DNA of 63,961 bases, filler included, from Collodictyon triciliatum (Eukaryota): NCBI GenBank assembly GCA_043381765.1. It is 8 parts of 8 records of this genome, joined end to end, with 100 filler letters (N's around TTAATTAATTAA, not from the genome) between each part and the next. Parts side by side here need not be neighbours in the genome. Positions count along the whole stretch, not along the records: positions 18,802 to 28,098 come from JBHJMP010003082.1; 7 more parts are not named here. One strand, given 5' to 3'. Position 1 is the stretch's first letter. Each line of letters begins with the position of its first letter. Positions 11,687 to 46,985 of this stretch are shown piece by piece. The position numbers and the translations under genes are program-made. The notes beneath the pieces were generated by a model that ran no database searches, was not told the DNA's origin, and saw nothing but the letters and a program-made list of their open reading frames with translations.

Positions 11687-13684
11687 ATCCCAGCTCAAGT
11701 TGTGTTTGCCTGTATACCGCTCCTTAGGAACCGACACACAAATAACGCAGAAGTCAATGAAAATCAGTCAGTAAACAGGTGTAAGCAATATATATCACCA
11801 TCATCGATTTTCCTGATTCTGTTACTTATACATAAAGGCAGCATGCTGATCGGGAATGTCACCGGACAAACTATATCCTGAACTGACTTAAGCAAATGCC
11901 AAAAAGCATTGTTGTGTATCTTCCAAGCATGATGTCTTTCAAACCCCAGAATATTTGAGGACTTTTGTGCCACTATTTTGTTTAAATTTGAACATTTGTA
12001 TTTTGAACAATCAAATCTCATTTGGCTCATCTGAAAAGGAATGTGTTCGCGAAATAGTATCTGGCTCACTGGCTCTTTGGGTGGCGGCCGGTATCTATGC
12101 TGTGATGGTTAGGATGATATGAAGATGTAAAGTCAATATCGTTTAATAAGATAAGGAGTGTTCCATGAAACCGAATCTCGCAAAGCGAAGTTAACTCCAA
12201 TAAAAATCAGATTCCATGATGCAGCATGCGTTCAAAAAAAAAAAAGAGAAAAAAAAAGGGTTGCGCTTTCAGGATTTGCCTTCCCTGGGGGACTTGAGCT
12301 TTTAAGCTGTATGACGAAGCTGGTATTATCACGCAGCAGCGATTATCTTGATACATCAGTCGTTGCCATTCACCTTCACAGACTAGGTATGCTTTGTTAT
12401 GAGAATTGAGAAAACACTCTGATTGCAATAATATTTCGTGCACATACCCACAGAGCTTATAAGCATTTGTTATTCAAAATTCAAAAGGACGTACATCGCA
12501 AAGAAGGTACATATAGTATCATGCGGCAAGTGAGAAAAAAATCATAGCGTGCCAACCAGATGACTGTGCCTCATCGCATATCTCAGCAGAGTTGGATAAG
12601 CTTTCAAAAGGTTGATGCAACGAAGAGCAAGATGTTACAGGGAAGGCCAAACTTCTCCCTTCTTTTCTCTCTCTCTCTATATATATATCGCTCTCCCTGG
12701 GCACCAGACACACTGGAGAGCGATGCACCATGGACGAGTGACAGTCACCTCAATCAAACTATGTACAACAGACATGAATGCTTTGTTCTTTGACTGTCTT
12801 GCCATGCAAAAGTTGTCCAAAAGGCTATATCTTGCCAGATCTGCTGCACTTGTGCGTATCTACTCGATTTCTTGTATGGACGGGCACCAAGGCAGAAGTC
12901 AACTCTGGATGCCACTCAAACAAGCAAAAATGCGCAATGTGTCAATGCAGAACCAAGCCTCTCATTGGCGGAATACGAACAGTCACCGATCCAGGAGAAA
13001 TGAATGAATGAACTGAAAACCAGAGTCGGTCGAGCATTTAGTGCATTCTTCCTTGCTACCGTCAGCGAGGTGTCATCTTTTCGCAACGAAAGTGGCATCC
13101 TCTTTCCTTTCATTCGCGCACATATATACATGCACTCTTTTTTCTTCCTTTTGAAATAAAAAAAATAATCTTACAAAGTATTTTCGTCTGGGGGCAGGCT
13201 TGGGAAAAAGGATTCGAGACAGGCTGCTTGATGCACTCCGATCAGCTGCAAAGAGGAAAGACTCTCCAGGTGAAGAGATTGTTGGACTCCACTTGCCTCT
13301 CTCTATCCATTTTCCATTTTTTCCCTTGTTTTATTCAGTGGAATCTAGTTCTATGTCTTCGTCTTGTGAAACTTATCTGTTTTTTCTTTTCTATTTTGTT
13401 AGTTTTCGCTTCGTTTCATTACCTTTTTTTTTTTTTAAGAGGGATAAAGCGAGAGTCTCTTTTTAATTTTCATTTTAATTCGCCCCTTTCAAAAAAAGTT
13501 TTTATATTTATTAATACCTTCTGTATCTTTCCTTCGCATATTCGTTTTTGAGGCACAGCATTACGGCTGAAAAAGAAGTGAACAAAACAAATAGTAGAAA
13601 TATTAAAAGAAGAAACATCATTCTTTATCATCCTTCAAACGACAATGAAATGAAAAACCTTCGTTTCTCTTGACTCGTATCGCG

Positions 13685-16600
13685 ATGTCTTTAGGGCATA
13701 GAACATGGTTCAGCTCCTTCTCGTTCATTCAGCCAAGGGAATGCATTCAAGCTACGGACCCAAAGCAAGCAAAAGATTCAGGTTACAAAATGCCATATCA
13801 TCGAGTATGCATTCTTATGCAAACCATGATGTAAATTGAATACAATAGCTATATTATGGCAAAGTCTCTTGTCAAACATTACTTGCATTTCTCTTCAATT
13901 TATTCATCAGGAATACGAGGATTGTGTGACCCTAAGTGCGTCAATCCACGGCCCAGACTTCTCCTTGGACGACGTTATTGTAAATCCAGATTTTGCAAGA
14001 GGCTTTGCAAAAGGACAAATAGTAGAGATTTACTCCACTGATTTCCCAGATGCGAGCGTTTTTGCAAAAATAAACCTTGTGGAACCTGGAAAGCAGTGTA
14101 TAAAAATCATTCATATGATAAGATATCTAAAAACAAGAAAACATAATATATGTATATATACTTTTTTTTAAAAAAAAATAATTTGTCTCGGTCAGTTTTG
14201 AACGTTAATCCATGTGTGATATTCTTATCTTTTAATAAAATCACAACCGAAATCAAAATTATAATCACTATGATACTCAACTTTTAAAGCCAAGATTCAG
14301 TTGAGTGTGGCTAAAGGCCTAGCCGACCTAGCTAAGTTACAACCAAGAAAGCCTGTCGTAATGAAAAAAGTATGTTCAACGGTGATACGACTCATTTAAC
14401 AGAAACAACTTAGATTTGAATCCCTTTTAATTTACATGAGCAAAAACTCAAAGAAAATCAAACGATATATTTTGGTTAGTCTTTAAAAAAATGAATGAAA
14501 GGTAGCACCTTCATTATTATACTTTTTTTCATTCATCTGCCCAAGATTTCTGAGGCAAGAGCAAGTATAGAGCATTTGGAGTTTTCTTTCAAGGATCAGT
14601 TCATTTCACGTAGCGATCAATGGTGGTTCCGAAAGAATTTTCTTAACGTGTGTGTCTCCACAGGTCAAAACCTCACAGCTCAAGGAGTTCGGGTATGTAT
14701 TCTCCATTTTGAAAACATTCATTATATTGACAGGCCAGTTGTCAATTTTTCTTTTTTTTTTTAAATAAATAAATAAATGAGTAAAACAATCATCTCTTGC
14801 GCGTTTCTTTTACTAAAAATAAACAAAAGGTTCGGGTCTCTGGTATTATGGTTGAAGGAAAAATTAAATCAAGCGGGATAGTAACAGAGAAAACAAAGTA
14901 CACTTTTCGATCGCGTTCATCGAGGATATATTGGCTGGTGGAAATGAGTCGGTGAGGAACCTAGTTGGTATCATGGTGTTCATATATTTATAAATTGGAA
15001 ACTTGCTCATTTATTCTTTCGTCAGTTTGGAAAAGAAAAATAAAGGGCGTTGCCTACCATCCATACATTATGAATTATATTCTGCTTTGATTAATTCACA
15101 AAACATATTATTATCTCTGGAACATATTTGAATTGACATCATTATTAGAGAAATGTGGGAGTACGCGCCAGACGGGGACTTGTATTTTGATAAATTGGTC
15201 TGTGCTTTCAGAGGGAAATCTCGCTACTCTCTCTTCTATCACATCTCCGGTTTAAAATGAAGAATCTTAAATGAGTTGTGATTTATCAGATTGACAAACA
15301 CCTGGAACTGGTTTACCAGCGCTGGGCAGTGACTGACGTTAATCACAGCCTTACTATTGTATTTTATTCAAGAACAGTCGTATTAAATTATAAAAGGTAA
15401 CAAAAATCACAATTCTTGTTGAAAAAAATAATATGTGAATAATTACGACAATTAAATGTATCCTACATTCAATCGATTTCTATTGCAATATTCTAGTTCA
15501 ATATTCAATCATCTTCCTGTGTCCTTTTTCGACGGGAAATATCATATTGATTCTTTTCACGTAAGAGTATAAATACATTTGAACCTTTGTCAGGGATTTT
15601 TATTAAATCAGAAAATAACTATGAGGTAGGTGTAAAAATGATAATAGTATATTGCATTATTTGATGATACATTCCGCAGGTTATTTACCACACTGAGGCA
15701 CAACGAGATTGGGAAAAAATTAAATTGGCCATGAAAACGCACTTTTCAAGATATCCATCTATGCACTATTGGGATGCGAAAGAGAGTAACTTTAGCATTA
15801 TTTTTTATATAAGAAGTGTTTATAATCTTGCTGTCATTTTTTATGTCCTATGACATAATTTACTGTTAACATGATAAAAAGGTGATAGACATATCGCATC
15901 ACCATCTCGAGCCTCTGAGGGCAACTTTCTGGAGGCCATCAACATGGTACTCCAAATGACTGAACAAGTTTGTATATTTTCTATTCTCTTACAATCCATC
16001 ATGAAAATTTCATTTTCATATCTTTAGCCCATGGGATATTTATATTTATACACAATTTTTTTCCTTTATTCGATTCAAAGTAAATTTGCACACTATAATA
16101 AGCGCTTTTTTTTTTTAAAAAAAAAAAACTTTCATAGGGGTCGATAGACCGTGATTTGAATCACACTGGACAAGCAATAGTAGCTTTCACGGCCGGAAAT
16201 GGAATTTACAACGTATGCTATTCGAGTTTCATACTCAATTTTCAACTACTTTCATATCTGAGATTTTTCATATGATTATGATTTTAACATCTTGAGTTCA
16301 TCAACAACTCTGATAAAAAAACATGGATGTATGTGACAGGTCAACTATGACTTGAGTAAGATCACGAAACAACGAATCATTTATAAAGGGCTGGGAATGG
16401 AGTTAATTTCTTTATCAAAAAGACCATTGCATTCAGTTCCTTTATTTCTGTACAGAAAGCTGCTGGATCAAGTGTGCTTCTATTCTATCACATATAATTT
16501 TATTCCATTTTGACCAAGTAATTATTTTTTTTTTGTATTTGTTCATGTGCAGATGTACCACTGCATAACAGAAGTTGGTGCTAATTTATCCATACATCTT

Positions 16601-18701: not shown

Positions 18702-18801
18702 NNNNNNNNNNNNNNNNNNNNNNNNNNNNNNNNNNNNNNNNNNNNTTAATTAATTAANNNNNNNNNNNNNNNNNNNNNNNNNNNNNNNNNNNNNNNNNNN
18801 N

Positions 18802-19105
18802 CGCTCCAATGATTCACCCGAACGAGAAATCAATCTAGCCAGGCTTGAGAGCCTCGTGCAATACAGCTTCCTGAACAACCTGCTGAAACACGCCCGCATT
18901 CTTCGCTACTCTGACCGCAAGCGAAGAGAGATGTGGAAATGTGTGATAAGTGATATCTCCCACAGCATATCCAACCCCTGCTACCCACACAACCAATCAA
19001 CCAGTTGGGGACGCCCACCTGACCAGCTCGCTATCACTGATTTCTTTTCGCTGGGTTTCATCATTACCAATCGGCATCCACACATGAAAGGAAAGGCACA
19101 AACCC
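18802..19105 (+). CDS. Possible exon of an unidentified gene
   Basis: Frame open from the contig start (RSNDSPEREINLARLESLVQYSFLNNLLKHARILRYSDRKRREMW...) and reaching a strong donor-like gtaagt; no family recognised. Confidence 0.35.
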
Positions 19106-19129
19106 CGTAAGTTTCAATCAATATCTCTA

Positions 19130-21700
19130 TTTTCCCTTTATTATGTTGTCATGTTCAGGGCTGTTTCTTATTAGTTCTCGCAAGCATTCCAGGAAGAATC
19201 ATCTGGAGGTGTGGGTTTCTGGGGAATTCTTTGTTCGGGGGTTTCTTTCAAGCCAAGACATTCCACCGGCAATTATGCCTTCCTGTGTTATCTGATTTTT
19301 CCAGTCATTTTCGTTTTTGGATTCTCTGAATAATATATCCACAGTTTCTCTCACATTACAACTTTTTGGATACATGTGTGTACTTTATCAGTTATGGGTG
19401 GGATGCGCCTGATATTCGGAGTTTTTATGGGGAAATTACCGTCCCAGAAGATGATGTAAGGTAGCAACACTGTTCTCGCATGATGTTGGCTTGGTCTCAT
19501 ACTCACTTTCTCTTCTTTTCTGGCGTGGTTTCCTGGCAATCGCACAGATACATCAATTAAGTGCATGTTTTTGCGTATCTTATCATGAGCTACTAAGCCA
19601 GGTCTAATAGCCGCTGTGTGAACTTTGGGGTCAAAGTTACAGTCAGAGTGTATCGTGCCGTATTGGTTTGTTACTGTATTACTGAACTTGTCGAGGTCAA
19701 GCCTCGGGCTTTTAGCTGCTTGTATTTCCTCAATTTGGGTGGCTAGGGATATTTCTTTTTTTTCTCTAGCATGAGGATAGCTGTTTTCCTGCTGTTTGTC
19801 GAGGTGTCGCTCAGGTAGCTGTAGGAGTTTATGAGAAACAATTATGTCTTGTGCGTTCAATGCTGGCAAGTCCCACTCCGTTTTCATTTCTGGGTCGGTG
19901 GAGTCTCTGTAAGCTTGCAGCTATGAAGTGGACTTTCTCGTTCCTAAGGAAATTTCCTACTTTTAAGTCCATCTCTATGAATTGGTCCGTGCTATTGTCG
20001 AAATGGCCTATATGATAGTTTAGTAGTGATAGGGCAAACTCATTGATTGCTTCAAAGAGGTGTTTGGTGTTTAGGTTTGTTGCACATAGTTTTTTGAATC
20101 GTTTATACATCTCTTCTTGAGTTTCTGTCCATGTCGTTTTTGCTATATGGTTTCCTTGGTCTTCGTAGACTCCTAGGTATCTGTATGTCCCATCTTGTCC
20201 AATTTCTTGGGCGCGGAGGGAGTCGGTTTGATAGTAGGTTGCTGATTTCCCTTTACTTATTATAAGCCCTACTATCTTTAGCTCGCTGGCTGTAATTTCT
20301 AGCATTGTCTCTGGCCGCTGTTTGGTGGTTTTTTTTAGCTTGTTGTCATCCACTATTTTTTTTCCTTTATTCGATTCAAAGAATGACACTCACAAATAAT
20401 AAGTGGTTTAGTTTCATTTATTGTTGCTCGTTGATGCTTATTTGTGGTACTACATTGAATTCTAGTTTTCTCGTGATAGGTTTTATGATGAAGATGAAAA
20501 GTAGGGTGATAAGCTGTCTCCTTGTAGTATACATTGTTTCAATTCAGCCCTTCCAAGCTTTTTTTCTTTGTGGTTTATGTTGAGTGTCCACTATTTTGTT
20601 GCGTTCTCCATGAATTGTATTATATGGGTTGGTGCTCAGAATTTTCCAGTGTTTTTAGGAGGAACTTGTGGCTGACTGAATTGTAGGCCTTCTGTACATC
20701 TAGGCATGCTGTGAATAACTTATTACCAAGTGAATGATTGATTTCTCTGTTGAAAAGGGCGTGTTCTTTGGCTCCTTGAGTTCCCTTCCTTATGCCTATT
20801 TGGTTCTCTAATATTATTCTGTTTAATTCTGGGTGTTAAGAGAGTTCACGCGACGGGGTAATTGTCAATAGTTTATGGAGGTCGCTCATGCACGTAATCG
20901 GTCTGAATCGTGATGGATTGTTCACTAATTTTTTATATGGAATGAGGTAGGTATTCTCTGTAAAGAACCACCTTGGTAATTCATCAGTTTTTTTATTCCT
21001 TTTTCATGACTTCTATAAGGTAAGTTGGAGTAAGTGTAAGTCTCTTGATGAAGAGTTTCTGCAACATATCGGGCCCAGTTGCTTTTCAGTAAGGGAGGGC
21101 TTTTATCACTTTCATCCATGTTTCCTCTAGAAAACTCCAGGACTCTCTTTCTCTCTTTTAATTGAGTTTGGTAGCCCACCAGGCCGCCCAGTCCGCTTTT
21201 CTTTTAAAGCCTATCCACTGCTCTTCTCAAAACTCGAGGACTTCATTTTCTCTTTTTTTCCATTTCTGGGGCCACAGAGTTTTGCTCCTGGAGGTTCCTG
21301 TAGAACCTGGGTATGTTTGTCTAGAATGGGTATCTTTCTTTCGAAAATTCCCTTCCCTTGTGCAAGCTTTCAATACGGCTTTGGTAGTTGCTATTTTTTC
21401 CTTGTATCGGCTTCTTATGATTCGGAGGTTCCTTTAATGTCGGTTTTCTACCATCCACTTTCGCAATATTTTTTTTATCTCTATCCATCGCTCATTGTCA
21501 ATTCTTTGGTTACCTATTTTTGGTCGAGAATGAGAATGATTTCTTGGAGTTTTGTGTTTTAGTGTTTAGTGGGGTCCAATCAATCTAATATTCGAGTTTT
21601 GCTTTCTGTGCAATGTTTTTTTTCAATACTCGTAAACTAGGCCATTTGAGCTTTTTGAGGTTGTTAGAATCAGCCCTGAAGAACCATGCTTTTTCACGGT
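19130..21700 (-). pseudogene. Decayed non-LTR retrotransposon with RT and restriction-like endonuclease (RLE; R4/EhLINE-like)
   Basis: Minus-strand fragments RFRPITCMSDLHKLLT, ENQIGIRKGTQGAKEHALFN, ACLDVQKAYNSVSH, LNHLLFV//DDNKL, YRYLGVYE, NLNTKHLFEAINEFALSLLNY, RPGLVAHDK...HLIDVSV, LLPYIIFWDG. Several stops and frameshifts; no introns. 5' boundary approximate. Confidence 0.88.
20356..20383 (-). mobile_element. Ultra-short poly(A) insertion element, copy E (within RT active-site codons)
   Basis: T8-CCTTTATTCGATTCAAAG on +; separates HLLFV from VDDNKL; flanks tgtcatccacta / tgacactcacaa resemble a decayed TSD of about 12 bp. Confidence 0.8.
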
Positions 21701-22721
21701 CAGCTATATGTTGCACGCTCAAGAGCCAGAATATTCAATAACCTCCTCACATGGCTCTGGACATGAGAAAGAAAAATTGTTTGTAAAAGAGCTATGAAAA
21801 ATGATGAATGTACAGCGACCAATTAAGCTACTAAATAAAAGGTGCATTTTCGCATAATCATGTGATGTGTGAACGTCAGAGTCGGTAAATAGGATATGGG
21901 AGTGGTGTTTCAAGTTTTCTCCATATATTCCAGACTGATATCATGTTGTTTTTTCCTTCCTTTTCATTCTACTCGCCTATAACATGGTACTTTCTGTGGG
22001 CTTTTACTACCTCGATGCGAGGTTGTAGTGCCAATCTTGTACCCCTTCTAGGATTACAATATCCTCTCCTTACAGCACCAAAGGAGTATCTTACCTTAGG
22101 GGAATAACGAATGAAGTAAGTAAAGAAAGAAAAAGCAATCTAATTACGATTCATACGTGACTTTACCCATTCATATCCCTATCTAGTCGATAAGTCCGCC
22201 AAACTCGTAGCTAAATTAGTTGACCAAACTTTCTGAGTCCCCATCAAACCGCGCGCTTCGACGTTTTAACCGGCCCAAAGAACGTGCCATTTAGGCTTCT
22301 CTAATTCACATGCACCCCTTTGAGGTGAATAAAGATTGAGAAAAAAAAAACGGACGTACATCTACCAAACTAGATATTTGATTATTAGGAGGGCGGTTGT
22401 ATCCTCGTTCTTACTATCTCATCTCCCATACCTTTGCCAACCGCATCTGCTCTTTTGCTCACCTCCCTTCCAACCACAACCCGCGCCATTTCCCACGGAT
22501 AGGATAGTCGCCCAAATCGAGCACACAACCGCCATTTCCAATAATAGATAATGTTCAACATTGTCTAATTGAATCATTTGCCATACATATACATATCATA
22601 AAATCAATAGAAAAAGAAAAAAGAAAAAGTGGTTTAATAAAAAGAAAAGAAAAATGGGTGTAATGGGATGATAATAATCAAAAAAAAAAAAAGTATTATA
22701 GACAGAACCAAAAAGCAAAGC

Positions 22722-25700
22722 ATGTCAGCCGCACGAAACGAGGAGAGTCCCACTGCACAGCGGACACGCGTTTCAGAAATCCGGCCATTCCATGAAGGCT
22801 CGCCCGCCAAGCCAACAGCCACAGAGAATCCCCCGCAAGGCCGAAGCATCCGATTTGCCGACATGGAGCCGGAGGACATAGAAATGAGCAGCCCGCGAAG
22901 CAACATGTCGACACTTCTAGCAAGAAAGAGTCCGCGATCGGCCACGAGACAAAACGCCCAACTCGCTTCTGAGCAGCCCCAGTCGCAAAGCCCGCGTGCC
23001 TCTTCTGCTTCTGCTTCTGCTTCTGCAAAGGCCATTCCCAACACACATATCGACCTGAGCGGAGTCGCAACTGCAACTGCAACTACAACTGCAACTGCAG
23101 CCGTTGGCTCTAGCGCCGAAACTTCGCAGCTGCAGATCGTGTCTGCCCGCTCGAATCACTCTTCTGAGGCAGGGCCGAGCGTTCCCCTTCGCAAGGCGAC
23201 TGAGACGGAAGCAACATCGAAAACATCGGTAGGTGTTGTCGCCCCGGCAGCTCCGAAAAAGATAAATCCGGCACCGAATTATGCCTACGACTTGACAGAT
23301 CGACGGGTGGCGACCTCAAAGTTTTCTCGCAGTTGGATGAATCACCGTTCCGTCAATATGTTTACGTCTAGGGTTTTTCGAATCTTCCAGCAGGTTTCTT
23401 TGATGATGAATCTTCATCTCATGTCTGATTATAGCTTTTCATGATGGTGCTTTCGTCATCATTACTATCGCTACTGTTTTTGTTGTTACTAATAATATTT
23501 GATTTCGGTATTTTTCATATTCTTGTTTGCTGGTCTATACCATTCGCCTTTTAATTTAAAAACCTGCAGCCGTCTCAGGATTATGCTGAGCAATCCAGCA
23601 ACATGTCTTCGCCGCCTCCAGCCTCTCCTGCCCCTGACAGTCAGGTCTCTCCGCCGACTCAGCCTGAAGTTCAGAGTCCAAAAGAAACAAAGACAGTTAC
23701 CTTTCTTGAAGAACTGATTGCATACAAAGATTACGTGGTACGGTGATAAGTGAAAGGATATGTGATGGATGCGCCATGAATATGTGCTTGTTTTTTGCCG
23801 GGCATGTTGTCACCTCGCTCATCGTTGCATGCGCTGAGTTGTTTATGAAAAACATTTCTGTTCATAGGTAGCATCTGTAACCTCAAAAGGGCTCTTTAAA
23901 TTTTTATTGGATGAAACACTCATTTTCCCTGAATCCAAATGGCTATCTTACTGGGACTTCTTTCTTACTCTCCTTATTTTCTACACTCTCTTGGTAGTTC
24001 CGTACGTGATTGGGTTCGATGTAGGAATTGCTTAAACTTTATTCTCAGTTATTCTTTGATTTTTATATTTTTGGATAAATATGTTTGGGCGCTTATAATT
24101 TAATTTCATTGATTTACTATTTTTTGCTAAAGGTTCATCCCCACTTATAGGTTAGTATGACAGGTGGATGGTATGACTTTGACATGTTTGTAGATGCGTG
24201 TTTCTTGACAAACATATTTGTGTCCTTCAGAACAGTCATCATTGAAAAATACGAGGTTTATTTAATCGATTTTCTTATTGATAATTTCTGCTGAAGCTCT
24301 TTCAAAGAACGACTTAAATCATTGAATTTATTTATTTAAATAAACTAGCCGGTCACAGATAATAAAAGGATCGCCATAAAATACATGAAAACATGGTTCT
24401 TAATCGACCTAATTGCTGGCTTTCCGTCAAATGTTCTTGCTGATAATCCCGTGATAAGTCATCCGCTCGGATTTATTCGATTGGTTCGATTATCGAAACT
24501 TAAACGTATTGGAAAGGTTAGTATGTGCACCTGACACATGCGGGATTTTTTTTTATGTCCTTCTGGTAGTCAATACTGAGATGCTTTGCTTTATACAATT
24601 AGTTTATCTTCTTGCATATACCAGAAGTATTTTGGATTTCTTACAAATTTTACAATGATATCTCTCATTCGCAGGCTAATATTTGGGCATCTACCTCAAA
24701 TCTATACACAGTGTTGAACCTTAGTGTTCAATTTGCCTTAATTGCTCATTGGTTAGGATGCGGATGGTATCTTGTAGGTCGTGTGCAGGTACAATAAAAC
24801 GAGAGTACATTTACGTATACTTAAGATGGTTCCGAACTCTTTAAAATATGGTTTCTAAATACTTTGAATCGAATAAAGGAAAAAAAAATATGGTTTCTAA
24901 AAAATAAATAAAAATGGGATATTTAATCTAAAAAAATGAAATGCCAAGTGTTTTAATTAACCAAAAATTAGGACTTTCCTGATAACAGCTTTTCCCCTGG
25001 GGCATCAGTTTTAAACAAGGTCAGGGTTTGCATATTCTTGAGAAAGCGAAACTATATCTCGGTTTGTTGATTTTTCGAAACAATTTATTTTACATGCGAC
25101 AACACGTATAGAGTAATGTCGAACGATACATGAAGTCTCTTTCATGGGGTTTTGTGAATCTTTCCGGTTTGGGTTCCAATTTGACTCCAGAGACATATCT
25201 CGAGTGCATTTTGACTATGATTGTGGTTATTGTCTCACTATTCGTGTTCGCTACAATTATCGGCTCTATGAACTCTGCGATTGGTTTGTATTCACCTTTA
25301 AATAGGAGGGAAAATATTGACTTCAATTTTCTGTCAGTCAGTTGACGTTATCTTATCAGTTAATATTATTTTAATGCTTATCAGAAAACTTGGATCGAAC
25401 CAAGTCACGATTTCGAGACCGCCTCCAAAGTGTCAACGAATACATGAGGGTTTGAATTGGTTTTACAATTCTTTCATATCTTTTCAAAGAATGGATAGTT
25501 AGGAAAATGTCCATCTTGTCATGAATGGAAATTAAAATCTCAAGTATACAGTACCGAAGACTTCCAGAGACTACAAAAACAAAAGTTCGTCAATACTACG
25601 AGAGAATTTGGTTTCTCAATCAGGGTGTGTTATGTTCCCTTATGAAGCTCCTTGTTGTTTGCATAAGGCGTATTATGGTTTAATTTTCCAATCCTAATCA

Positions 25701-26414
25701 TACTTGACATCCAGGACTGGACGAAAAAACTATTCTTGACGACCTACCCAGAGACTTGAGGCTTGAAGTTGCTATGTTCGTCCACAAGTCACTGGTACAA
25801 AAGGTTTTTTTTTTCATGCGCTTATCTTCTTTAAGTAAACATCTGGTGTCATATGTTGTTATTGCAATCAACAAAATAGATATAAAAGCGAAACAATTCC
25901 CATCAGGTTCCTCTATTTCGAGACGCTGACGAGGCATTTATCCGAGCACTCACCCTAAGAATCAAGCCAGAGCTATGCTTACCTGGAGACTTCATATTTA
26001 GACAAGGGTTTGTTCCTGGTGTTTTATAAAATAATTTGAATTTTTTTTAAGCAAATACAGTTAGAGGTTGAGAATTAACTAAAATAAAATGAAAGAGAAA
26101 GAGGGGCTGAAATGTACTTTCTCGGTCGTGGAAAGGTAGAGATTATCGCCGGCGATGGAGTCACTATCTTGACAGTTTTAGGCGAAGGGGCTTACTTTGG
26201 TTTGCCATTATATATGTATATATTATTTTGATGCTGGTATTCATTTATTTTGGATCTAACAAATGCATATGATACGAAAAGGTGAAATCGCAATTCTAGC
26301 AAATGCCACTCGAACGGCATCTGTCAGGGCAGTGGAGGCATGCGAATTATTTGTGGTGAATTTTCTTTTGTAACTTGTATTCATAACCTATTTGTCTCCA
26401 ATACGTTCCCCAAA

Positions 26415-26472
<58 letters not shown>

Positions 26473-27146
26473 ATTCAAGCTCCAAAAAGTGGACTTTGAT
26501 GATCTACTTGGACAGTACCCTTCCATGTCTGAAAAGATTCGACAGGTAATCAATCGCGTTCAAAGCAACATACCGATGGAAGAGAGTAGTCTGGCCATTA
26601 TGTGGTTCAATTTTTTCTTACATTTATTTTTTGCTTCGCTTTAATCATCTCACCTCGAATCTCAATAACTTGTCTTGCCAGGTTGCTCAAGAGAGAGAAA
26701 AGAATAAAGTAGCACCTGTCAATGCCCCACAATCCATATCTAATTTTATCAGTGCCCTTCGTGGAGCCAGGTTTGTTATTTTAACTCATTCATCTATCTG
26801 CAGTCACTAAGGTCGCCAACCAAACCGCAGATTTTAATCAACTGCTTCCTTTTGTGTGTAACGAAACAGGCACTTGAAAGCCAAAGCAGAAAGGCACCGC
26901 CACCTATCAGCGTCATCGGCCGCATCCACTGCCACAGCAGAGCTCATCCACGAAGAGGACGAGGAAGCAGACAAGACCGCAAGCCACGAAAAGGGAAGTG
27001 CGGCCGACGCAAAAACATCATCTGACAATCAAAAATCTATTCAAGCCCAATCCAAACAAGAGACCCCCAGTGCGAAATCAGAATCTGTAAGGGATGTGGC
27101 TAATCGAGATGATGAACTTGTCAGCCCGGAATCCACCCCACGCTAA
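22722..27146 (+). CDS. Cyclic-nucleotide-binding-domain 6TM cation channel (CNG/HCN/KCNH superfamily)
   Basis: Spliced: IFPESKWLSYWDFFLTLLIFYTLLVVPYVIGF (S1), RIAIKYMKTWFLIDLIAGFP (S3), FIRLVRLSKLKR (S4), AHWLGCGWY (S5), YMKSLSWGFVNLSGLGSNLTPETYLE (pore), FATIIGSM (S6), C-linker ILDDLPRDLR, CNBD PGDFIFRQG..G.EMYFLGRGKVE...GAYFGEIAIL...RTASVRA; ends ESTPR*. Confidence 0.92.
24860..24884 (+). mobile_element. Ultra-short poly(A) insertion element, copy B (channel-gene intron)
   Basis: TACTTTGAATCGAATAAAGG-An between perfect 17-bp direct repeats AAAATATGGTTTCTAAA (24843-24859 and 24885-24901). Confidence 0.92.
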
Positions 27147-27224
27147 CTGGAGATGCTCTGCCTGCTTCTGATTCGTGGACAGCACTGCGCCATCCTCTTG
27201 TCATTCCTTTTTCTTTTTTTTCAT

Positions 27225-27350
27225 TTTGTTTTGTTTTTGTTTTGTTTTGTTTTTGTTTTGTTTTGTTTTGTTTTGTTTTGTTTTGTTTTGTTTTGTTTTG
27301 TTTTGTTTTGTTTTGTTTTGTTTTGTTTTGTTTTGTTTTGTTTTGTTTTT
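27225..27350. repeat. (TTTTG)n microsatellite
   Basis: Directly visible. Confidence 0.95.
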
Positions 27351-27477
27351 CCTCTCGGATTAACACTTTTATCGACTTTGTAGTGAAAGCATAGATACCA
27401 ATACACTCTGTGATTATCCATATCTTCGAACCATTTCTCGGGCCTTCGCTGTATATAAAATATGATCTAGTCAAATA

Positions 27478-27503
27478 CTTTGAATCGAATAAAGGAAAAA
27501 AAA
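27478..27503 (+). mobile_element. Ultra-short poly(A) insertion element, copy C (downstream of channel gene)
   Basis: CTTTGAATCGAATAAAGG-A8 between perfect 16-bp direct repeats ATGATCTAGTCAAATA (27462-27477 and 27504-27519). Confidence 0.92.
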
Positions 27504-28198
27504 ATGATCTAGTCAAATAAAAAAAATCTGAAAAATACAGACACAACCAAGGACAGAACGCAGAAGACAAAGTCGTGTGGCAGGGGTGGTTGGCCATGCC
27601 TATTCCGGATTCCAGAAACGACATCAGCCCGGTGAGTGTTTGTAAAGATTGGTCGCTGTCGTTGCCGCCGATGGGATATGGCGAGGAAAAGTCTGTCTCA
27701 GCCGCTTTCGAAACGAGATCATTCGTTGTGGGTTTTGGGACGTGCCTTTGGTCAGGGCCGGCAGCACGGAATTTCGTGTTGCCAGAGGGGCATTGTTGGC
27801 AGGGGGCTTCTCTGCTTGTTCGATGTCTCTCGTATTGGGCGCTATACATGGCGTTGTGCTTATCTTTTTCTCTTTTCTCTTTTTTCTCTTTTTTCTCTTT
27901 TTTCTCTTTTTTCTCTTTTTTCTCTTCTTTTTTCTTTTTTCTTTTTTCTTTTTTCTTTTTTCTTTTTTCTTTTTTCTTTTTTCTTTTTTCTTTTTTCTTT
28001 TCTCTTTTATTCTCTTTTATTCTCTTTTATTCTCTTTTATTCTCTTTTATTCTCTTTTATTCTCTTTTATTCTCTTTTATTCTCTTTTATTCTCTTTTNN
28101 NNNNNNNNNNNNNNNNNNNNNNNNNNNNNNNNNNNNNNNNNNTTAATTAATTAANNNNNNNNNNNNNNNNNNNNNNNNNNNNNNNNNNNNNNNNNNNN

Positions 28199-34200: not shown

Positions 34201-37200
34201 CTTTCTTGCCGCCTTTTTCAGGCTTTTCACCTTTCACAGGCTTCTTTTTCTTTTTGGGGTCCTCCTCCTCTTTAGGCTTTGGGGCATCTTTCGAGGGCGG
34301 TGGCTTTACTGCGCGAGGTTTGATATCCTCGATTAACGCCCGCTCCGCTCTTCTCTGGTCTTCAATAATTTGAAGCATGTTGGTGCATCGGCGATGTACT
34401 TCATTTGGATCCTCTTTCAAGAGTGCATACCGACAAATGAGTGCCCCATACTTTAAAAACAACGAGTCTGTGGTAAACCTCTGGATTAGGATGGAAAAGG
34501 CGTCTGAAGTGTTCAGATGTATCAGCGGCCACAGGGTCCTCGCTATGTCTGGCAAATAGTCCAGCTTCCCATCACTGAATAGACGGCCATATAGATCAGG
34601 ATATGAAGCATACGACATTCCGAGAGCAACTACCTCTTCTACGGGAGCCTTCTTTTGCTGGGAAGCATCATCTGTTCGCCGCGCCTGGACACTCCCAGTC
34701 ATTTCCTCCTTCTTGAGAGAGCTTGACATGGCCCCTTGCGCCGTGTTGCTTTGTGAGGCGGCCCCACCAGTTCCGGGTGGAACAGTTTTTTGGGCCCCCT
34801 TTCCTCCACTACTTGCTGGATGGTTTCCGGACTGGCTATTTTGTGGCGTTTGGTTGAGAGCATTTCCAATGGCGGGGGTAGCTACACTCATCGCAGAGGT
34901 TATAGGAATCCGTCCTCGCCCGCTTTTAACTAATCGGACGTGTTCATCTAATTCGTCCACTTTGACTCCCACAAACAACTCGCTCGGACGCAGCTCGCCA
35001 ACACCTCGAAGAAAGGCAAAGACTTGGTAAGAGATAATGGCACCGATTCGGCTGATAGGCTCACAATCCAGCTCTTCCAGAGGAAGGAACTGGAGAGCGT
35101 GGTAACACACCTATACATTACACAGGGAGAAAAAATCGCAGAGTTTAAGTCTAATTGTCTCGACATTAAGTTACATGANNNNNNNNNNNNNNNNNNNNNN
35201 NNNNNNNNNNNNNNNNNNNNNNNNNNNNNNNNNNNNNNNNNNNNNNNNNNNNNNNNNNNNNNNNNNNNNNNNNNNNNNNNNNNNNNNNNNNNNNNNNNNN
35301 NNNNNNNNNNNNNNNNNNNNNNNNNNNNNNNNNNNNNNNNNNNNNNNNNNNNNNNNNNNNNNNNNNNNNNNNNNNNNNNNNNNNNNNNNNNNNNNNNNNN
35401 NNNNNNNNNNNNNNNNNNNNNNNNNNNNNNNNNNNNNNNNNNNNNNNNNNNNNNNNNNNNNNNNNNNNNNNNNNNNNNNNNNNNNNNNNNNNNNNNNNNN
35501 NNNNNNNNNNNNNNNTTAAAAAAAAAACTCCTTACCTTGGGAGATGATGTGTTGATAAAGTCTCGCACAAAGCATTTTTACTTCACAAATCATAGGTTAT
35601 TCAGTCTGTGTAAATTATAAGAAAGATACCATCAGTGTTTTTTTGGCTGTTTTCAAACGGAGTGCTTGGTATGGCACTAGATTAGTCTTTCCGTCCCTGG
35701 CATCATGTCGAAATCCCTAATTTTTTTTATTTCGTTTCGTTTTTTTTTTTAAAAAAAAAAAAGGCTGTAGTTTCAATCGCTTTTTCTTTTGTTGGGTTAC
35801 AACTTGATTGGCATTGCACTTAAAATTGACTAAACGAATCACACCTTGAATGAAACAAGCTCAGAGGCGAGCAGGAATGCATGAATAACCGCTCGTAGAA
35901 GAGGAAGTGAGCAGAGTCCTAAACGGTCGTCTCTAAGGTGACTTGTCGACATAGGATTTGCCTCCCAAGTTGGCTATAAGAATATATGGTGGATACTTTT
36001 GAAAACAGTAAATATAGCAAGGATTCGGATTCTAAGATCTAAGTTGGTCTCAATTGTATTTGAATGGAAGATTTCTTAAACAGCATTTCTACCTTATCTG
36101 CATCGGTTTTCGTGAAATAGTCAAACACTACTTGGGCTGCCTGTCTAGCAACATCAGATACTCCAAGTAATCGACTTGTCTGGCTCAAATATGACCATAG
36201 CAACCAAATCGGCAAAGGAGATAAAGCAGATATGTCGATACTGGAAAGACCAATATTCGATAAACGAGAGCCTAATAGCCGAAAAAAGTATCAGTAAAAG
36301 ACATTATCCTGCTGTAGGGTTATAAGTAATCATCTTGGCTTATAATCTATGTCCTTTTCATAAATTTTAAGCGTAAGACGGTAAGAATGGGATGGCTATT
36401 GAAGTGTTGCTTATTGCCTTGGGAATTAAATGCAGCCATAGCAAATTTATATGATTCATTAGGTTGCAGGTTCGTTATAATAATCTAAAAAAAAATCTCG
36501 TAAGGACGTGAACATAATCTAAAATATTCATGTTTTGTAACAATAAAACTAGTTCGTTTAAATATATGAATTTGGGAGTGTATCATGTTACACGTGCAAC
36601 TACTACATTAGGATAATTATAAATATATCTCACTGTTTCTCCAATGGGATAAGGGGTGCCTGTTCCAGAAAAGTCGCGATTATTTAGCGAGACACTGACG
36701 CCACTTCCAGCTGGTTTCCCAAACACGGCCATTCTGATGTTCATTTTCATATGATACGAGTTTTTTTTTCCATTTTAATAAAATAAATATAAGGGATTTG
36801 TGCATGAAGAAAGAGTGTAATTCAAAACCAAGAAAATATATGCTGGTTTGTAAGAATTCGAATGTATGTACAGGGGGATGATGCCTTTGGCTTGATAATT
36901 ATGCGACAGTAAGCCTATAGACGTTGGCGTACGGAAGAGCAGCATGGGCGGTTCGGGAACATCATAAACGTTGGGAGCTTTGGACACTCCCTTGGCTGAC
37001 ATTTGGAGATGAAAAAAAAATTATGTGAGAAGATGAAATAAGAAACTCCGATATGCCTTTAAATCAAATGATTATTTTCAAAGTCTGGTCAAATAAATTA
37101 CCGCCATATAGCAGTAATTCCTCTTCTTCTGTTTGAATTATTTCCAGAAAGTTGGCTGCTTCTTGGAGGAGTGTTTGTCTCTCCCTCCTTTTGAATCTAA

Positions 37201-37497: not shown

Positions 37498-37740
37498 NNN
37501 NNNNNNNNNNNNNNNNNNNNNNNNNNNNNNNNNNNNNNNNNTTAATTAATTAANNNNNNNNNNNNNNNNNNNNNNNNNNNNNNNNNNNNNNNNNNNNACA
37601 TACATACATACATACATACATACATACATACATACATACATACATACATACATACATACATACATACATACATACATACATACATGCATGCATGCATACG
37701 CTAACAAAACCCTGGCCGCCCGGCATCGCCACCCACACAG

Positions 37741-37949
37741 AAATCCTCGAGAATCTAAAGTCTGAGATGAACCATATATCAAGCCGTGCACTTGAAGACC
37801 CTGCTTGCTCTGAGGCCTTGGATCGGTCGAACCCACGACCAACGTCACTCACCGGGTGGGCTGGAGACAATGGCGATGACACAAGGTCCCTGGATTCTCG
37901 CTCGCGGTTGCCTTCCTCTGCTGGACTTGCGATGCTCGATTCAAAGTAA
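37741..37949 (+). CDS. Probable terminal exon of an unidentified gene
   Basis: Branch-like gctaac, acceptor cacacag, then open frame EILENLKSEMNHISSRALEDPACSEALDRS...MLDSK*. Confidence 0.4.
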
Positions 37950-38819: not shown

Positions 38820-40514
38820 TTAGAGATGGGCATAAGTAAACGAATAAACCAGGAGTTGTACCCTTCGAACGGCCTCTTCTCTNNNNNNNNNNNNNNNNNN
38901 NNNNNNNNNNNNNNNNNNNNNNNNNNNNNNNNNNNNNNNNNNNNNNNNNNNNNNNNNNNNNNNNNNNNNNNNNNNNNNNNNNNNNNNNNNNNNNNNNNNN
39001 NNNNNNNNNNNNNNNNNNNNNNNNNNNNNNNNNNNNNNNNNNNNNNNNNNNNNNNNNNNNNNNNNNNNNNNNNNNNNNNNNNNNNNNNNNNNNNNNNNNN
39101 NNNNNNNNNNNNNNNNNNNNNNNNNNNNNNNNNNNNNNNNNNNNNNNNNNNNNNNNNNNNNNNNNNNNNNNNNNNNNNNNNNNNNNNNNNNNNNNNNNNN
39201 NNNNNNNNNNNNNNNNNNNNNNNNNNNNNNNNNNNNNNNNNNNNNNNNNNNNNNNNNNNNNNNNNNNNNNNNNNNNNNNNNNNNNNNNNNNNNNNNNNNN
39301 NNNNNNNNNNNNNNNNNNNNNNNNNNNNNNNNNNNNNNNNNNNNNNNNNNNNNNNNNNNNNNNNNNNNNNNNNNNNNNNNNNNNNNNNNNNNNNNNNNNN
39401 NNNNNNNGAAATTGTGTCAAAACTACAATCACGCTTCATTCTAACTTGGTATACCACCCAAACCCAGCTGACCGTATCAAAATATTCAAGGTAATAGTCC
39501 GTGGTATGAATTTAAAGATAGCATACTTGGTCAATTCCGCATGTCGGGTCGGCGAAGCGGACGATGCTGACAAATTCAGAAAAGTCTAACTCTCCGTCGT
39601 TGTATATGTCGCTGGCAGAGAATAACTTGGCGAGATATTTGTCTGTAGCTGGGCTCTCCTTTTCAGCCTCTTCCATGACCAGCAAGAGAAATCTTTCGTC
39701 ATTTTGAGTTATTATTTGTTCTTGTTTTTAAAAAAGGCCATTCGATAAAATTATGTAATTGCTTATTTGAATCACTAAAATATAGATGTAGATATAGCCC
39801 ATCATGTGCCCAAATCACCCATGTTGATAAATTAATAACTACTTATCGACGGAGACGCAAACTATTTTATCCCCATCCTCTCCCACATATTCAGACTCTG
39901 TGCTTTTGGTACGAGATGCGGACGTTGGTCGGGTGATAGCCCTAACATAGATAAATACAGTCAGGCTGATGAATAGGACAACATTTTGGGTGACTAACAG
40001 ATAACTGTAGAATAAGTAAAAATCTATTATACTTTGCTGAGGTTGGCCGGACACTTGAGCGTGGTGCTGATGACGACCTTAGCATAATAAATTGAGAACA
40101 GAATTCATGTATACTGCATTTGAAAAGATTATGAAATATCTTGAACTCCTTTTACTTTTCACCGCATAAAAATGGTATGAATGGAAGGGAAAGCTATTCT
40201 TTTTTCTTTCTATTTGTTACCGGTAGGTGGTTTCGAGAATTTTTTCAAGTCTCTGCAAGAATCGTCCCAATTCTTCTGGTGTCCTATCCGTGAACAAATT
40301 ACGAGCCACATCCACAACCTTTGCGTGTGCGACAAGGGTAATTCCAACCGTCTTATCGGGTATTGTAGGTCCGATAACAGAGGAGTTTATAAGGTTCAAT
40401 GTGTGTCTGGGTATCAACAAACATTTTAGCGAGTGAAATCCTTTCAATCAATGAATTCTTATGTGTCACTCAAATCTCAATATCTTACTAATGTTAAAAA
40501 GAATAGAATACCAT

Positions 40515-46877: not shown

Positions 46878-46985
46878 TTTATTATNNNNNNNNNNNNNNN
46901 NNNNNNNNNNNNNNNNNNNNNNNNNNNNNTTAATTAATTAANNNNNNNNNNNNNNNNNNNNNNNNNNNNNNNNNNNNNNNNNNNN

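What the first reader, a model, noticed from the sequence alone, without database searches (positions are those of the whole stretch)
24843..24901. Family of roughly 25-30 bp micro-retroposons: (TA)CTTTGAATCGAATAAAGG-poly(A) with 16-17 bp target-site duplications
Seen: the identical 18-nt core CTTTGAATCGAATAAAGG followed by 7-9 A occurs 5 times on three unlinked contigs and in both orientations (16056-16082 -, 20356-20383 -, 24860-24884 +, 27478-27503 +, 51493-51519 -). Three copies sit between perfect, mutually unrelated direct repeats: AAAATATGGTTTCTAAA, ATGATCTAGTCAAATA and TTGATTATATCAACTT. The other two have decayed duplications. All five start at essentially the same 5' position, and the core has AATAAA just before the tail. 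Known: a poly(A) tail plus a variable TSD of about 15 bp is the hallmark of target-primed reverse transcription, but SINEs are usually 80 bp or more with Pol III boxes, and 5'-truncated LINEs end at random points. Inference: this is either a defined ~20-nt RNA template copied into nicks, or a LINE whose RT stops reproducibly at a small hairpin (CTTTG/TAAAG stem). About 1 copy per 12 kb here would imply a very abundant family that repeat finders would miss because of its size.
Basis: partly seen in the sequence, partly recalled or inferred. Interest (0 to 1): 0.9.

Follow-up and report, generated by a model that had tools for sequence, protein, structure and literature searches.

The report
Tiny LINE-tail retrocopies, fixed length
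Five identical insertions of about 28 bases in this unidentified eukaryote are copies of only the last 20 bases plus the short A-tail of a LINE retrotransposon, and unusually they all begin at the same base.

Summary
CTTTGAATCGAATAAAGG occurs 5 times exactly (0.11 expected) on 3 of the window's 8 contigs. Each copy is followed by A7-A9 and preceded by TA in 4 of 5. Three of 5 lie between perfect 16-17 nt direct repeats.

New here: the 18-mer is the 3' end of an L1-like LINE. Metagenome locus L008 carries an ORF2 C-terminus (Pfam zf-RVT), a roughly 75-nt 3'UTR, then ...CTACA-core-A10. Its ORF part is 95.9% identical to window 18802-19047. So these are LINE-tail retrocopies made by target-primed reverse transcription, not an artefact and not a SINE.

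They are not ordinary random truncations. All 5 of 5 start at the same place, with no shorter or longer tail copy in the window. The proposed hairpin stop fails (-0.3 kcal/mol, no better than shuffles).

Two things do not fit. A relative's contig lacks 58 nt at 24843-24900, not the 42 expected for a clean empty site. Two copies have intact cores but no significant duplication.

What fixes the 5' end is unresolved: a discrete short template or a hard RT stop. No whole genome was available. This is a new variant of a known kind, of moderate interest.

The parts
24843..24859 (+). Upstream direct repeat (17 nt, AAAATATGGTTTCTAAA) of copy 1
24860..24888 (+). Copy 1: TA + 18-nt core (24862-24879) + A9. 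It lies in an intron of the cyclic-nucleotide-binding channel gene, in sense orientation.
   Evidence: intron 24787-24969 by spliced contig; loose ends at 24859 and 24889-24891 mark the repeat borders
24885..24901 (+). Downstream direct repeat of copy 1. It overlaps the last 4 A of the tail.
27462..27519 (+). Copy 2 with 16-nt repeats: ATGATCTAGTCAAATA (27462-27477, ending in TA), core 27478-27495, A8, repeat 27504-27519. It lies about 330 nt downstream of the channel gene's stop codon (27144-27146), in sense orientation.
51477..51535 (-). Copy 3 with 16-nt repeats (AAGTTGATATAATCAA on the - strand): repeat 51520-51535, TA 51518-51519, core 51500-51517, A7 51493-51499, repeat 51477-51492
16056..16082 (-). 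Copy 4: TA + core (16063-16080) + A7. The core is perfect and the flanking repeat is not significant (11 of 15, p about 0.07).
20356..20383 (-). Copy 5: TT + core (20364-20381) + A8. The core is perfect and there is no flanking repeat (9 of 15, p about 0.23).
18802..19047 (+). Fragment of the parent LINE family (end of ORF2). It is 95.9% identical over 246 nt to L008, whose own 3' end is the 18-nt core + A10. This copy starts at the contig edge and departs from L008 at 19047.

Best explanation
SHOWN. The units are TA + CTTTGAATCGAATAAAGG + A7-9. The 18-mer is the last 18 nt before the poly(A) of an L1-like LINE. L008 carries the C-terminal zf-RVT part of that ORF2. Its distant full-length relatives have APE endonuclease plus reverse transcriptase. 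The same LINE family is in this genome. Three copies carry perfect 16-17 nt duplications of unrelated sequence, each starting at a T|A step.

INFERRED, wide claim (about 0.85). The LINE's endonuclease nicks the target at T|A. The exposed 3' end primes on the A-run. The reverse transcriptase copies the tail. A staggered second nick 16-17 nt away produces the duplication. This is target-primed reverse transcription.

INFERRED, specific claim (scored here). The copies are not random 5' truncations. They are copies of a discrete, very short template of 20 nt plus a short A-run. This would be a tail-only, non-autonomous lineage marked by the dinucleotide TA and mobilised in trans by the LINE. The 18-20 nt block would be the only part the enzyme needs besides the A-run.

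How the short RNA gets its fixed 5' end (cleavage or a protected footprint of a longer RNA) is not known.
For: - Exact recurrence far above chance: 5 observed against 0.11 expected.
- An A-run follows 5 of 5 copies, and perfect 16-17 nt repeats flank 3 of 5. These three are the only such insertions in the window apart from 1 low-complexity row.
- Of 198 A-runs of 7 or more, the core is the only dispersed, non-tandem recurrent tail shared by 4 or more runs.
- Of 35 metagenome loci with the exact 18-mer, 1 (L008) has poly(A) after it. That locus carries a zf-RVT ORF (E 1.5e-7, 32.4 bits against a cut-off of 27.5), a 3'UTR, then the core and A10.
- L008 is 95.9% identical to window 18802-19047 over 246 nt.
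- Distant relatives P0013-P0016 (1226-1275 aa) carry Exo_endo_phos and RVT_1 in 4 of 4.
- Fixed 5' end: even the 5-nt suffix plus A6 occurs only at the 5 copies, and nothing in the window matches the 98 nt that precede the tail in L008.
- TA precedes the core in 4 of 5 copies and in at least one further copy in run X1 (loose end at 24859). The two LINE contexts seen have CA (L008) and CCC (an X2 contig).
- The conserved block shared by the LINE variants starts where the micro-copies start.
- Word depth in the bin holding the element is 144 and 155, against about 3-5 in the neighbouring bins, with loose ends on both sides. So further copies exist in two other runs.
- A contig of run X1 lacks the element at 24843-24900.
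Against: - The sample is only 5 copies in 62 kb, and the whole genome could not be searched.
- The 3' end of the LINE in the window's own genome was not seen. A LINE subfamily with TA before the core (one transition from L008's CA) would remove the TA argument.
- No RNA of this size was looked for or seen.
- The X1 contig skips 58 nt, not the 42 nt of a clean empty site. It lacks the unique part of the 'duplicated' target as well.
- Two of 5 copies have no significant duplication although their cores are perfect.
- A 20-nt unit has no room for a promoter, so a self-sustaining lineage needs an unexplained source of template.
Confidence: 0.45

Rival explanations
1. Abortive or early-ended reverse transcription on full-length LINE RNA. 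The enzyme starts on the poly(A) and copies about 20 nt. It then stops or switches to the target reproducibly at the edge of the terminal block, for example at a bound protein or a degraded template edge. The short cDNA is then sealed in. The micro-copies would be dead-end by-products of the LINE, not a lineage of their own.
For: - The core equals the LINE's 3' terminus.
- The LINE is present in this genome. Its ORF2-end segment (window 19008-19046) has summed word depth 154 and 188 in contigs of two related runs.
- The upstream duplications end A-rich (..CTAAA..CAAA[TA]..TCAA). This fits microhomology joining of a short cDNA.
- The tails are short (A7-9).
Against: - No hairpin or other predicted structure at the stop. 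The element folds at -0.3 kcal/mol with z +0.21, and the L008 3' region has z -0.23.
- TA in 4 of 5 copies does not match CA or CCC in the two LINE contexts seen.
- 0 of 5 tail-bearing copies in the window is longer than 20 nt. This would need nearly every event to abort at the same base.
Confidence: 0.33
2. Ordinary, randomly 5'-truncated LINE copies that happen to look alike in a small sample.
For: The core is a LINE tail. Earlier notes of this scan on another genome found SINE-like repeats to be truncated LINE tails.
Against: 5 of 5 copies start within the same 2 nt. There are no copies with 5-17 nt of the tail and none longer. Random truncation over a 3'UTR of about 100 nt or more would not give this.
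Confidence: 0.04
3. Not a simple target-primed insertion. The flanking repeats would not be duplications of the target but would arrive with the insert. This could be templated repair synthesis or secondary copying of an already flanked unit. Alternatively the element is lost imprecisely.
For: The X1 contig joins 24842 to 24901. It lacks 58 nt, namely the element plus both repeat copies apart from a shared AAAATA. Two of 5 copies have intact cores without duplications.
Against: - The three repeat pairs are unrelated in sequence and of the classic 16-17 nt length, and each starts at T|A.
- The 16 extra missing bases lie between two AAAATA repeats in an AT-rich intron, where slippage indels are likely.
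- The same pair of sequences differs by another 12-nt indel within about 2 kb.
- X1 is 2-3% diverged, so two separate events are plausible.
Confidence: 0.1
4. Artefact: adapter, primer or assembly error.
For: The sequence is short and perfectly identical in all five copies.
Against: - The copies are flanked by locus-specific duplications, lie in both orientations, and sit inside unique sequence.
- The motif is present in an independent metagenome contig as a LINE tail.
- It is also present in contigs of two other runs.
Confidence: 0.01

Closest known systems
5'-truncated ('dead on arrival') copies of L1-type, APE-endonuclease LINEs (general knowledge, recalled)
   Same: The A-tail, the variable 16-17 nt duplications, the nick at a T|A step (one site is TTT|AAAA), and a sequence identical to the LINE's 3' terminus.
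   Different: Truncation points are normally spread out. Here 5 of 5 are at one base, only 20 nt from the tail. They outnumber longer tail-bearing copies 5 to 0 in the window, and the TA before the core does not match the two LINE contexts seen.
SINEs that borrow the 3' tail of a partner LINE (for example the eel UnaSINE1/UnaL2 pair and bivalve tRNA-derived SINEs; the first is recalled, the second seen only as a search listing, PMC11481361)
   Same: Non-autonomous, sharing the partner LINE's 3' end, and possibly more numerous than the LINE.
   Different: No Pol III promoter head and no body. The unit is 20 nt, against roughly 80-500 nt for SINEs. The shortest primate SINE, Platy-1, is about 100 bp (abstract start seen in a listing, PMC4864456).
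Chimeric retrocopies made by LINE template switching (U6-L1 chimeras, PMC4476161; Magnaporthe tripartite pseudogene, PMC2104539; both seen only as listings or abstract starts)
   Same: They involve the LINE 3' end and a switch of template at a defined RNA end. One X2 contig joins the LINE ORF end (19046) to the core through CCC, which looks like such a junction.
   Different: The micro-copies carry no second RNA. The switch, if there is one, goes straight to the target DNA.
Truncated LINE tails mistaken for SINEs in a red alga
   Same: A SINE-like repeat turns out to be a LINE 3' end.
   Different: Those are 217-300 nt and of varied length. These are 20 nt and uniform.

Membership tests
Retrocopy made by target-primed reverse transcription of an L1-like (APE endonuclease) LINE | 3' A-run or poly(A) | tested here: met
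   5 of 5 copies end in A7-A9. L008's LINE ends in A10.
Retrocopy made by target-primed reverse transcription of an L1-like (APE endonuclease) LINE | Flanking target-site duplications of variable sequence, about 7-20 nt | tested here: inconclusive
   3 of 5 have perfect repeats of 17, 16 and 16 nt. 2 of 5 are not significant (p about 0.07 and 0.23). At the one site with a relative's allele, 58 nt are missing rather than 42.
Retrocopy made by target-primed reverse transcription of an L1-like (APE endonuclease) LINE | First nick at a T/A-type site (TTTT/AA-like) | tested here: inconclusive
   3 of 3 duplications start with A after a T. Only 1 of 3 is a full TTT|AAAA. The sample is too small.
Retrocopy made by target-primed reverse transcription of an L1-like (APE endonuclease) LINE | Sequence identical to the 3' end of an autonomous LINE | tested here: met
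   L008 reads zf-RVT ORF, 3'UTR, core, A10.
Retrocopy made by target-primed reverse transcription of an L1-like (APE endonuclease) LINE | Partner element encoding endonuclease and reverse transcriptase in the same genome | tested here: inconclusive
   Only the ORF2 C-terminal fragment is in the window (18802-19047). No RT or EN domain was found in the 20 window ORFs scanned. EN plus RT were seen only in distant relatives P0013-P0016.
Ordinary 5'-truncated LINE copies | 5' ends scattered along the element | tested here: not met
   5 of 5 start at the same place. There are none with 5-17 nt of the tail and none longer.
SINE | Internal Pol III promoter (head derived from tRNA, 7SL or 5S) | tested here: not met
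   The unit is 20 nt. ARAGORN and Rfam find only one tRNA-Ser at 10404-10484 and nothing at the copies.
SINE | Length of roughly 80-600 nt with a body | tested here: not met
   20 nt plus the A-run.
SINE | 3' tail shared with a partner LINE | tested here: met
Processed pseudogene of a cellular mRNA | Template is a spliced host mRNA | tested here: not met
   The sequence is the LINE's own tail and no host-gene part is attached.

The most novel reading that the evidence does not exclude
The 20-nt block plus a short A-run is a complete, self-standing retroposon. It would be the smallest non-autonomous retroelement described. It would have a defined RNA 5' end and would be the whole cis-requirement of its L1-like reverse transcriptase. 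LINE subfamilies would themselves acquire or exchange this block by template switching. That would explain why the sequence just upstream of the core differs among the contexts seen: CA in L008, CCC in an X2 contig, TA in the micro-copies. It would also explain why conservation starts exactly where the micro-copies start.
Probability: 0.25. Interest if true: 0.75.

Novelty: new variant of a known kind. Interest (0 to 1): 0.5.

Why it matters
If the fixed 20-nt length holds genome-wide, it marks either the minimal template an L1-like reverse transcriptase will accept or a hard stop only 20 nt into cDNA synthesis. Both bear on how 5' truncation arises and on what a LINE enzyme recognises at the 3' end of its RNA.

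In practice, units this short fall below the size limits of repeat finders. At about 1 per 12 kb they could amount to thousands of unannotated insertions. Each carries AATAAA and an A-run, and so could add polyadenylation signals inside introns and 3' flanks. Two of the five here lie in sense orientation in or just after one gene.

If it is only a local sample of LINE debris, it is ordinary.

Tried and rejected
- **Whole-genome census:** not possible, because no genome is held for this window.
- **Hairpin-stop idea:** rejected. The element has MFE -0.3 kcal/mol and z +0.21, with 77 of 200 shuffles folding as well. The 161-nt L008 3' region has z -0.23.
- **tRNA-like processing signal upstream of the core in L008:** none found.
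- **Other collections:** the 26-mer with TA and A6 gave 0 hits in metagenome contigs. Core plus A5 gave 0 in genome contigs and 0 in viral contigs. The LINE ORF gave no relative in genome contigs. A 36-mer of the LINE gave 0 in viral contigs.
- **Metagenome 18-mer hits:** 34 of the 35 lack a poly(A) and look like chance matches in unrelated sequence.
- **Paper search for the 18-mer:** 0 papers.
- **Paper searches for very short SINEs, fixed truncation points or abortive reverse transcription**: only listings were read. No listed title or abstract start described a LINE-tail retroposon of this size. That is not proof that none is in print. Supplements are closed and were not needed.
- **Taxon:** not resolved.
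  - A 584-aa window ORF had no homologues.
  - Atlas look-ups gave only 'Eukaryota', with animal phyla commonest for the LINE domain.
  - The LINE's closer relatives are unnamed fragments from ENA, JGI and Logan assemblies on contigs of 561-1809 nt.
- **RNA evidence:** no RNA holder was listed for the stretch. X1 and X2 proved spliced, so at least part is RNA. Run X3 laid 1 contig on a low-complexity spot only. Parts of the stretch without cover say nothing.
- **Earlier notes of this scan:** none on this genome or sequence.
- **Spliced-leader or reverse-strand reading of the motif:** considered and dropped. The A-run and duplication geometry fit the poly(A) orientation.
- **DNA-transposon footprint:** dropped. 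There are no terminal inverted repeats, and to my recollection no known superfamily makes 16-17 nt duplications.
Full report
**What the window is.** It is 63,961 bases with 1,754 N. Seven N44-TTAATTAATTAA-N44 linkers join eight contigs, most of which break in microsatellites. Three further N-runs (337, 525 and 276 nt) lie inside contigs. GC is about 28-45% per 2 kb. No whole genome is held.

Spliced contigs of two public runs define at least 12 GT..AG introns of 82-183 nt in a + strand gene at about 23632-27146. The gene encodes a cyclic-nucleotide-binding cation channel. So this is an intron-rich, AT-rich eukaryote. I could not name the taxon.

**The observation.**
- CTTTGAATCGAATAAAGG occurs 5 times, all exact, even with up to 3 mismatches allowed. 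Chance expectation is 0.11, and 0 of 100 shuffles reach 5.
- The copies lie on 3 of the 8 contigs, two on + and three on -.
- In a common orientation each is followed by A7-A9. The two bases before it are TA in 4 of 5 and TT in 1 of 5.
- A scan for exact direct repeats of 12 nt or more, 14-400 nt apart, with the second preceded by A6 or more, returned 4 rows. Three are copies 24843-24901 (17 nt), 27462-27519 (16 nt) and 51477-51535 (16 nt). One is a low-complexity tract.
- The three repeat pairs are unrelated to each other. Each begins with A after a T, and one site is TTT|AAAA.
- Among 198 A-runs of 7 or more, the core is the only dispersed, non-tandem sequence recurring upstream of 4 or more runs.

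The 'decayed duplications' of copies 16063 and 20364 score 11 of 15 and 9 of 15, p about 0.07 and 0.23 against 5000 random positions. Both cores are perfect. Age decay is therefore an unlikely reason for the missing repeats, and insertion without a duplication is more likely.

**What the 18-mer is.**
- A scan of metagenome contigs gave 35 loci with the exact 18-mer. In 34 the motif sits in unrelated sequence without an A-run. In 1, L008, it is followed by A10.
- Read on its - strand, L008 (1157 nt) carries an open frame of 202 aa and, after a frameshift, another of 133 aa.
- The first frame matches Pfam zf-RVT, the zinc-binding C-terminal domain of non-LTR reverse transcriptases (E 1.5e-7, 32.4 bits, cut-off 27.5).
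- After the stop comes a 3'UTR of about 75 nt, then ...CTACA, the core, and A10.
- L008 positions 687-929 (reverse-complement numbering) match window 18802-19047 at 95.9% over 246 nt. The same LINE family is thus in the window's genome.
- An exhaustive protein search found 14 relatives. The four full-length ones (1226-1275 aa, 29-38% identical over the matched part) all carry Exo_endo_phos and RVT_1. Three of the four also have a sub-threshold zf-RVT. This is the L1-type ORF2 layout.
- The closer relatives are unnamed fragments on short contigs.

The core is therefore the 3' terminus of an L1-like LINE, and the five units are copies of just that terminus.

**Independent data.** Contigs of runs X1 and X2 were laid on window 19000-28000. 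Exons match nearly perfectly and introns differ by about 2-3%, so these are close relatives.
- The 300-nt bin holding the element has summed word depth 144 and 155, against about 3-5 in the neighbouring bins.
- Loose ends sit at 24859 (before) and 24889-24891 (behind). Further copies with other flanks therefore exist, and their borders are TA...A9.
- Three X2 contigs run on as 19 or more A after the core.
- The LINE piece 19008-19046 has depth 154 and 188. Loose ends there read like L008's 3'UTR.
- One X2 contig joins 19046 to the core through CCC. This is a LINE variant, or a chimera, without the 3'UTR.

The motif is not an adapter or an assembly artefact.

**Are these ordinary truncations?** In the window, no.
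- Every suffix of the core from 5 to 18 nt, each followed by A6, occurs exactly 5 times, at the five copies.
- Nothing in the window matches the 98 nt that precede the tail in L008.

So 5 of 5 tail-bearing copies end at the same base and 0 are longer or shorter. The base pair before the core also differs: TA in the micro-copies, CA in L008, CCC in the X2 contig. The block conserved among the LINE contexts begins where the micro-copies begin.

**Why the 5' end is fixed.** The 29-nt unit folds at -0.3 kcal/mol (z +0.21), and 77 of 200 shuffles fold as well. The last 161 nt of L008's element give z -0.23, and there is no tRNA-like signal.

Two models remain.
- **(a) A discrete short template.** This would be a tail-only lineage marked by TA, or a protected or cleaved 3' fragment of LINE RNA, copied to its end.
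- **(b) A hard stop or switch.** The reverse transcriptase would stop or switch on full LINE RNA 20 nt in.

The upstream repeats end A-rich (..CTAAA..CAAA[TA]..TCAA). This hints at microhomology joining, but n is 3. I lean to (a) at 0.45 against (b) at 0.33, mainly on the TA evidence and the 5-to-0 ratio. The LINE 3' end of this very genome was not seen, and it could overturn that.

**What does not fit.**
1. An unspliced X1 contig of 377 nt joins 24842 directly to 24901. It lacks 58 nt. A clean empty site would lack 42 nt, namely the element plus one 17-nt repeat. The extra 16 nt lie between two AAAATA hexamers in a low-complexity intron. The same comparison shows another 12-nt indel within about 2 kb. 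An independent slippage indel, or an imprecise loss, is therefore plausible. Still, this single case does not give the textbook proof of a target duplication. It leaves about 0.1 for a mechanism in which the repeats arrive with the insert.
2. Two copies have perfect cores but no significant flanking repeat.
3. A 13-mer, TACTTTGAATCGA, also occurs at 37936-37948(-) in unrelated context. It is unexplained and may be chance.

**Comparison with what is known.** By mechanism these behave like L1-type retrocopies. By role they resemble SINEs that share a LINE's tail.
- They fail the SINE definition: no Pol III head, no body, and 20 nt.
- They fail the 'random truncation' feature of ordinary LINE debris.
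- Paper searches gave no precedent of this size among the listings I read. The shortest primate SINE named there is about 100 bp (PMC4864456, abstract start only).
- Earlier notes of this scan on a red alga describe SINE-like repeats that were truncated LINE tails of 217-300 nt. That is the ordinary version of this situation.

**Verdict.** These are real, recently inserted retrocopies of a LINE tail. The uniform 20-nt length, the TA mark and the excess over longer copies remain unusual. They are worth a genome-wide census.

This is a new variant of a known kind, with interest 0.5.

Noticed in passing
window 9302-9401, 18702-18801, 28099-28198, 37498-37597, 46886-46985, 56271-56370, 60070-60169: The window is eight contigs joined by N44-TTAATTAATTAA-N44 linkers. 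Most contig ends are microsatellites, for example (CTGTAT)n, (ATT)n and (ACAT)n.
   Followed up: yes
window 23632-27146 (+): A gene for a cation channel with a cyclic-nucleotide-binding domain. At least 12 GT..AG introns of 82-183 nt are confirmed by spliced contigs of runs X1 and X2. The stop codon is at 27144-27146, followed by a long (TTTTG)n tract.
   Followed up: partly
window 19047-19105: The window's LINE fragment departs from L008 at 19047. About 40 nt later it reads ...ATGAAAGGAAAGGCACAAA, which could be an older, mutated AATAAAGG-A(n) tail of another subfamily. A GTAAGT follows at 19107.
   Followed up: no
window 37936-37948 (-): TACTTTGAATCGA, the first 13 nt of the TA+core unit, occurs once more in a GC-richer context with no A-run. 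About 0.002 is expected by chance for an exact 13-mer.
   Followed up: partly
window 10404-10484 (-) and 10784-11767 (-): A tRNA-Ser(TGA) gene (65.2 bits) lies next to an open frame with a RING-type zinc finger.
   Followed up: no
window 35179-35515, 38883-39407, 53854-54129: Three N-runs of 337, 525 and 276 nt lie inside contigs (gaps or withheld stretches). Long stop-free frames of 584 and 614 aa abut or span two of them. They have no Pfam match, and the 584-aa frame has no homologue.
   Followed up: no
window about 170-520 (+): A tandem array of a roughly 17-nt A-rich unit (containing AAAATAGTAAACC) lies at the start of contig 1.
   Followed up: no
window 23074 region: The contig of run X1 lacks 12 nt here relative to the window. 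This is an in-frame-sized indel between close relatives.
   Followed up: no
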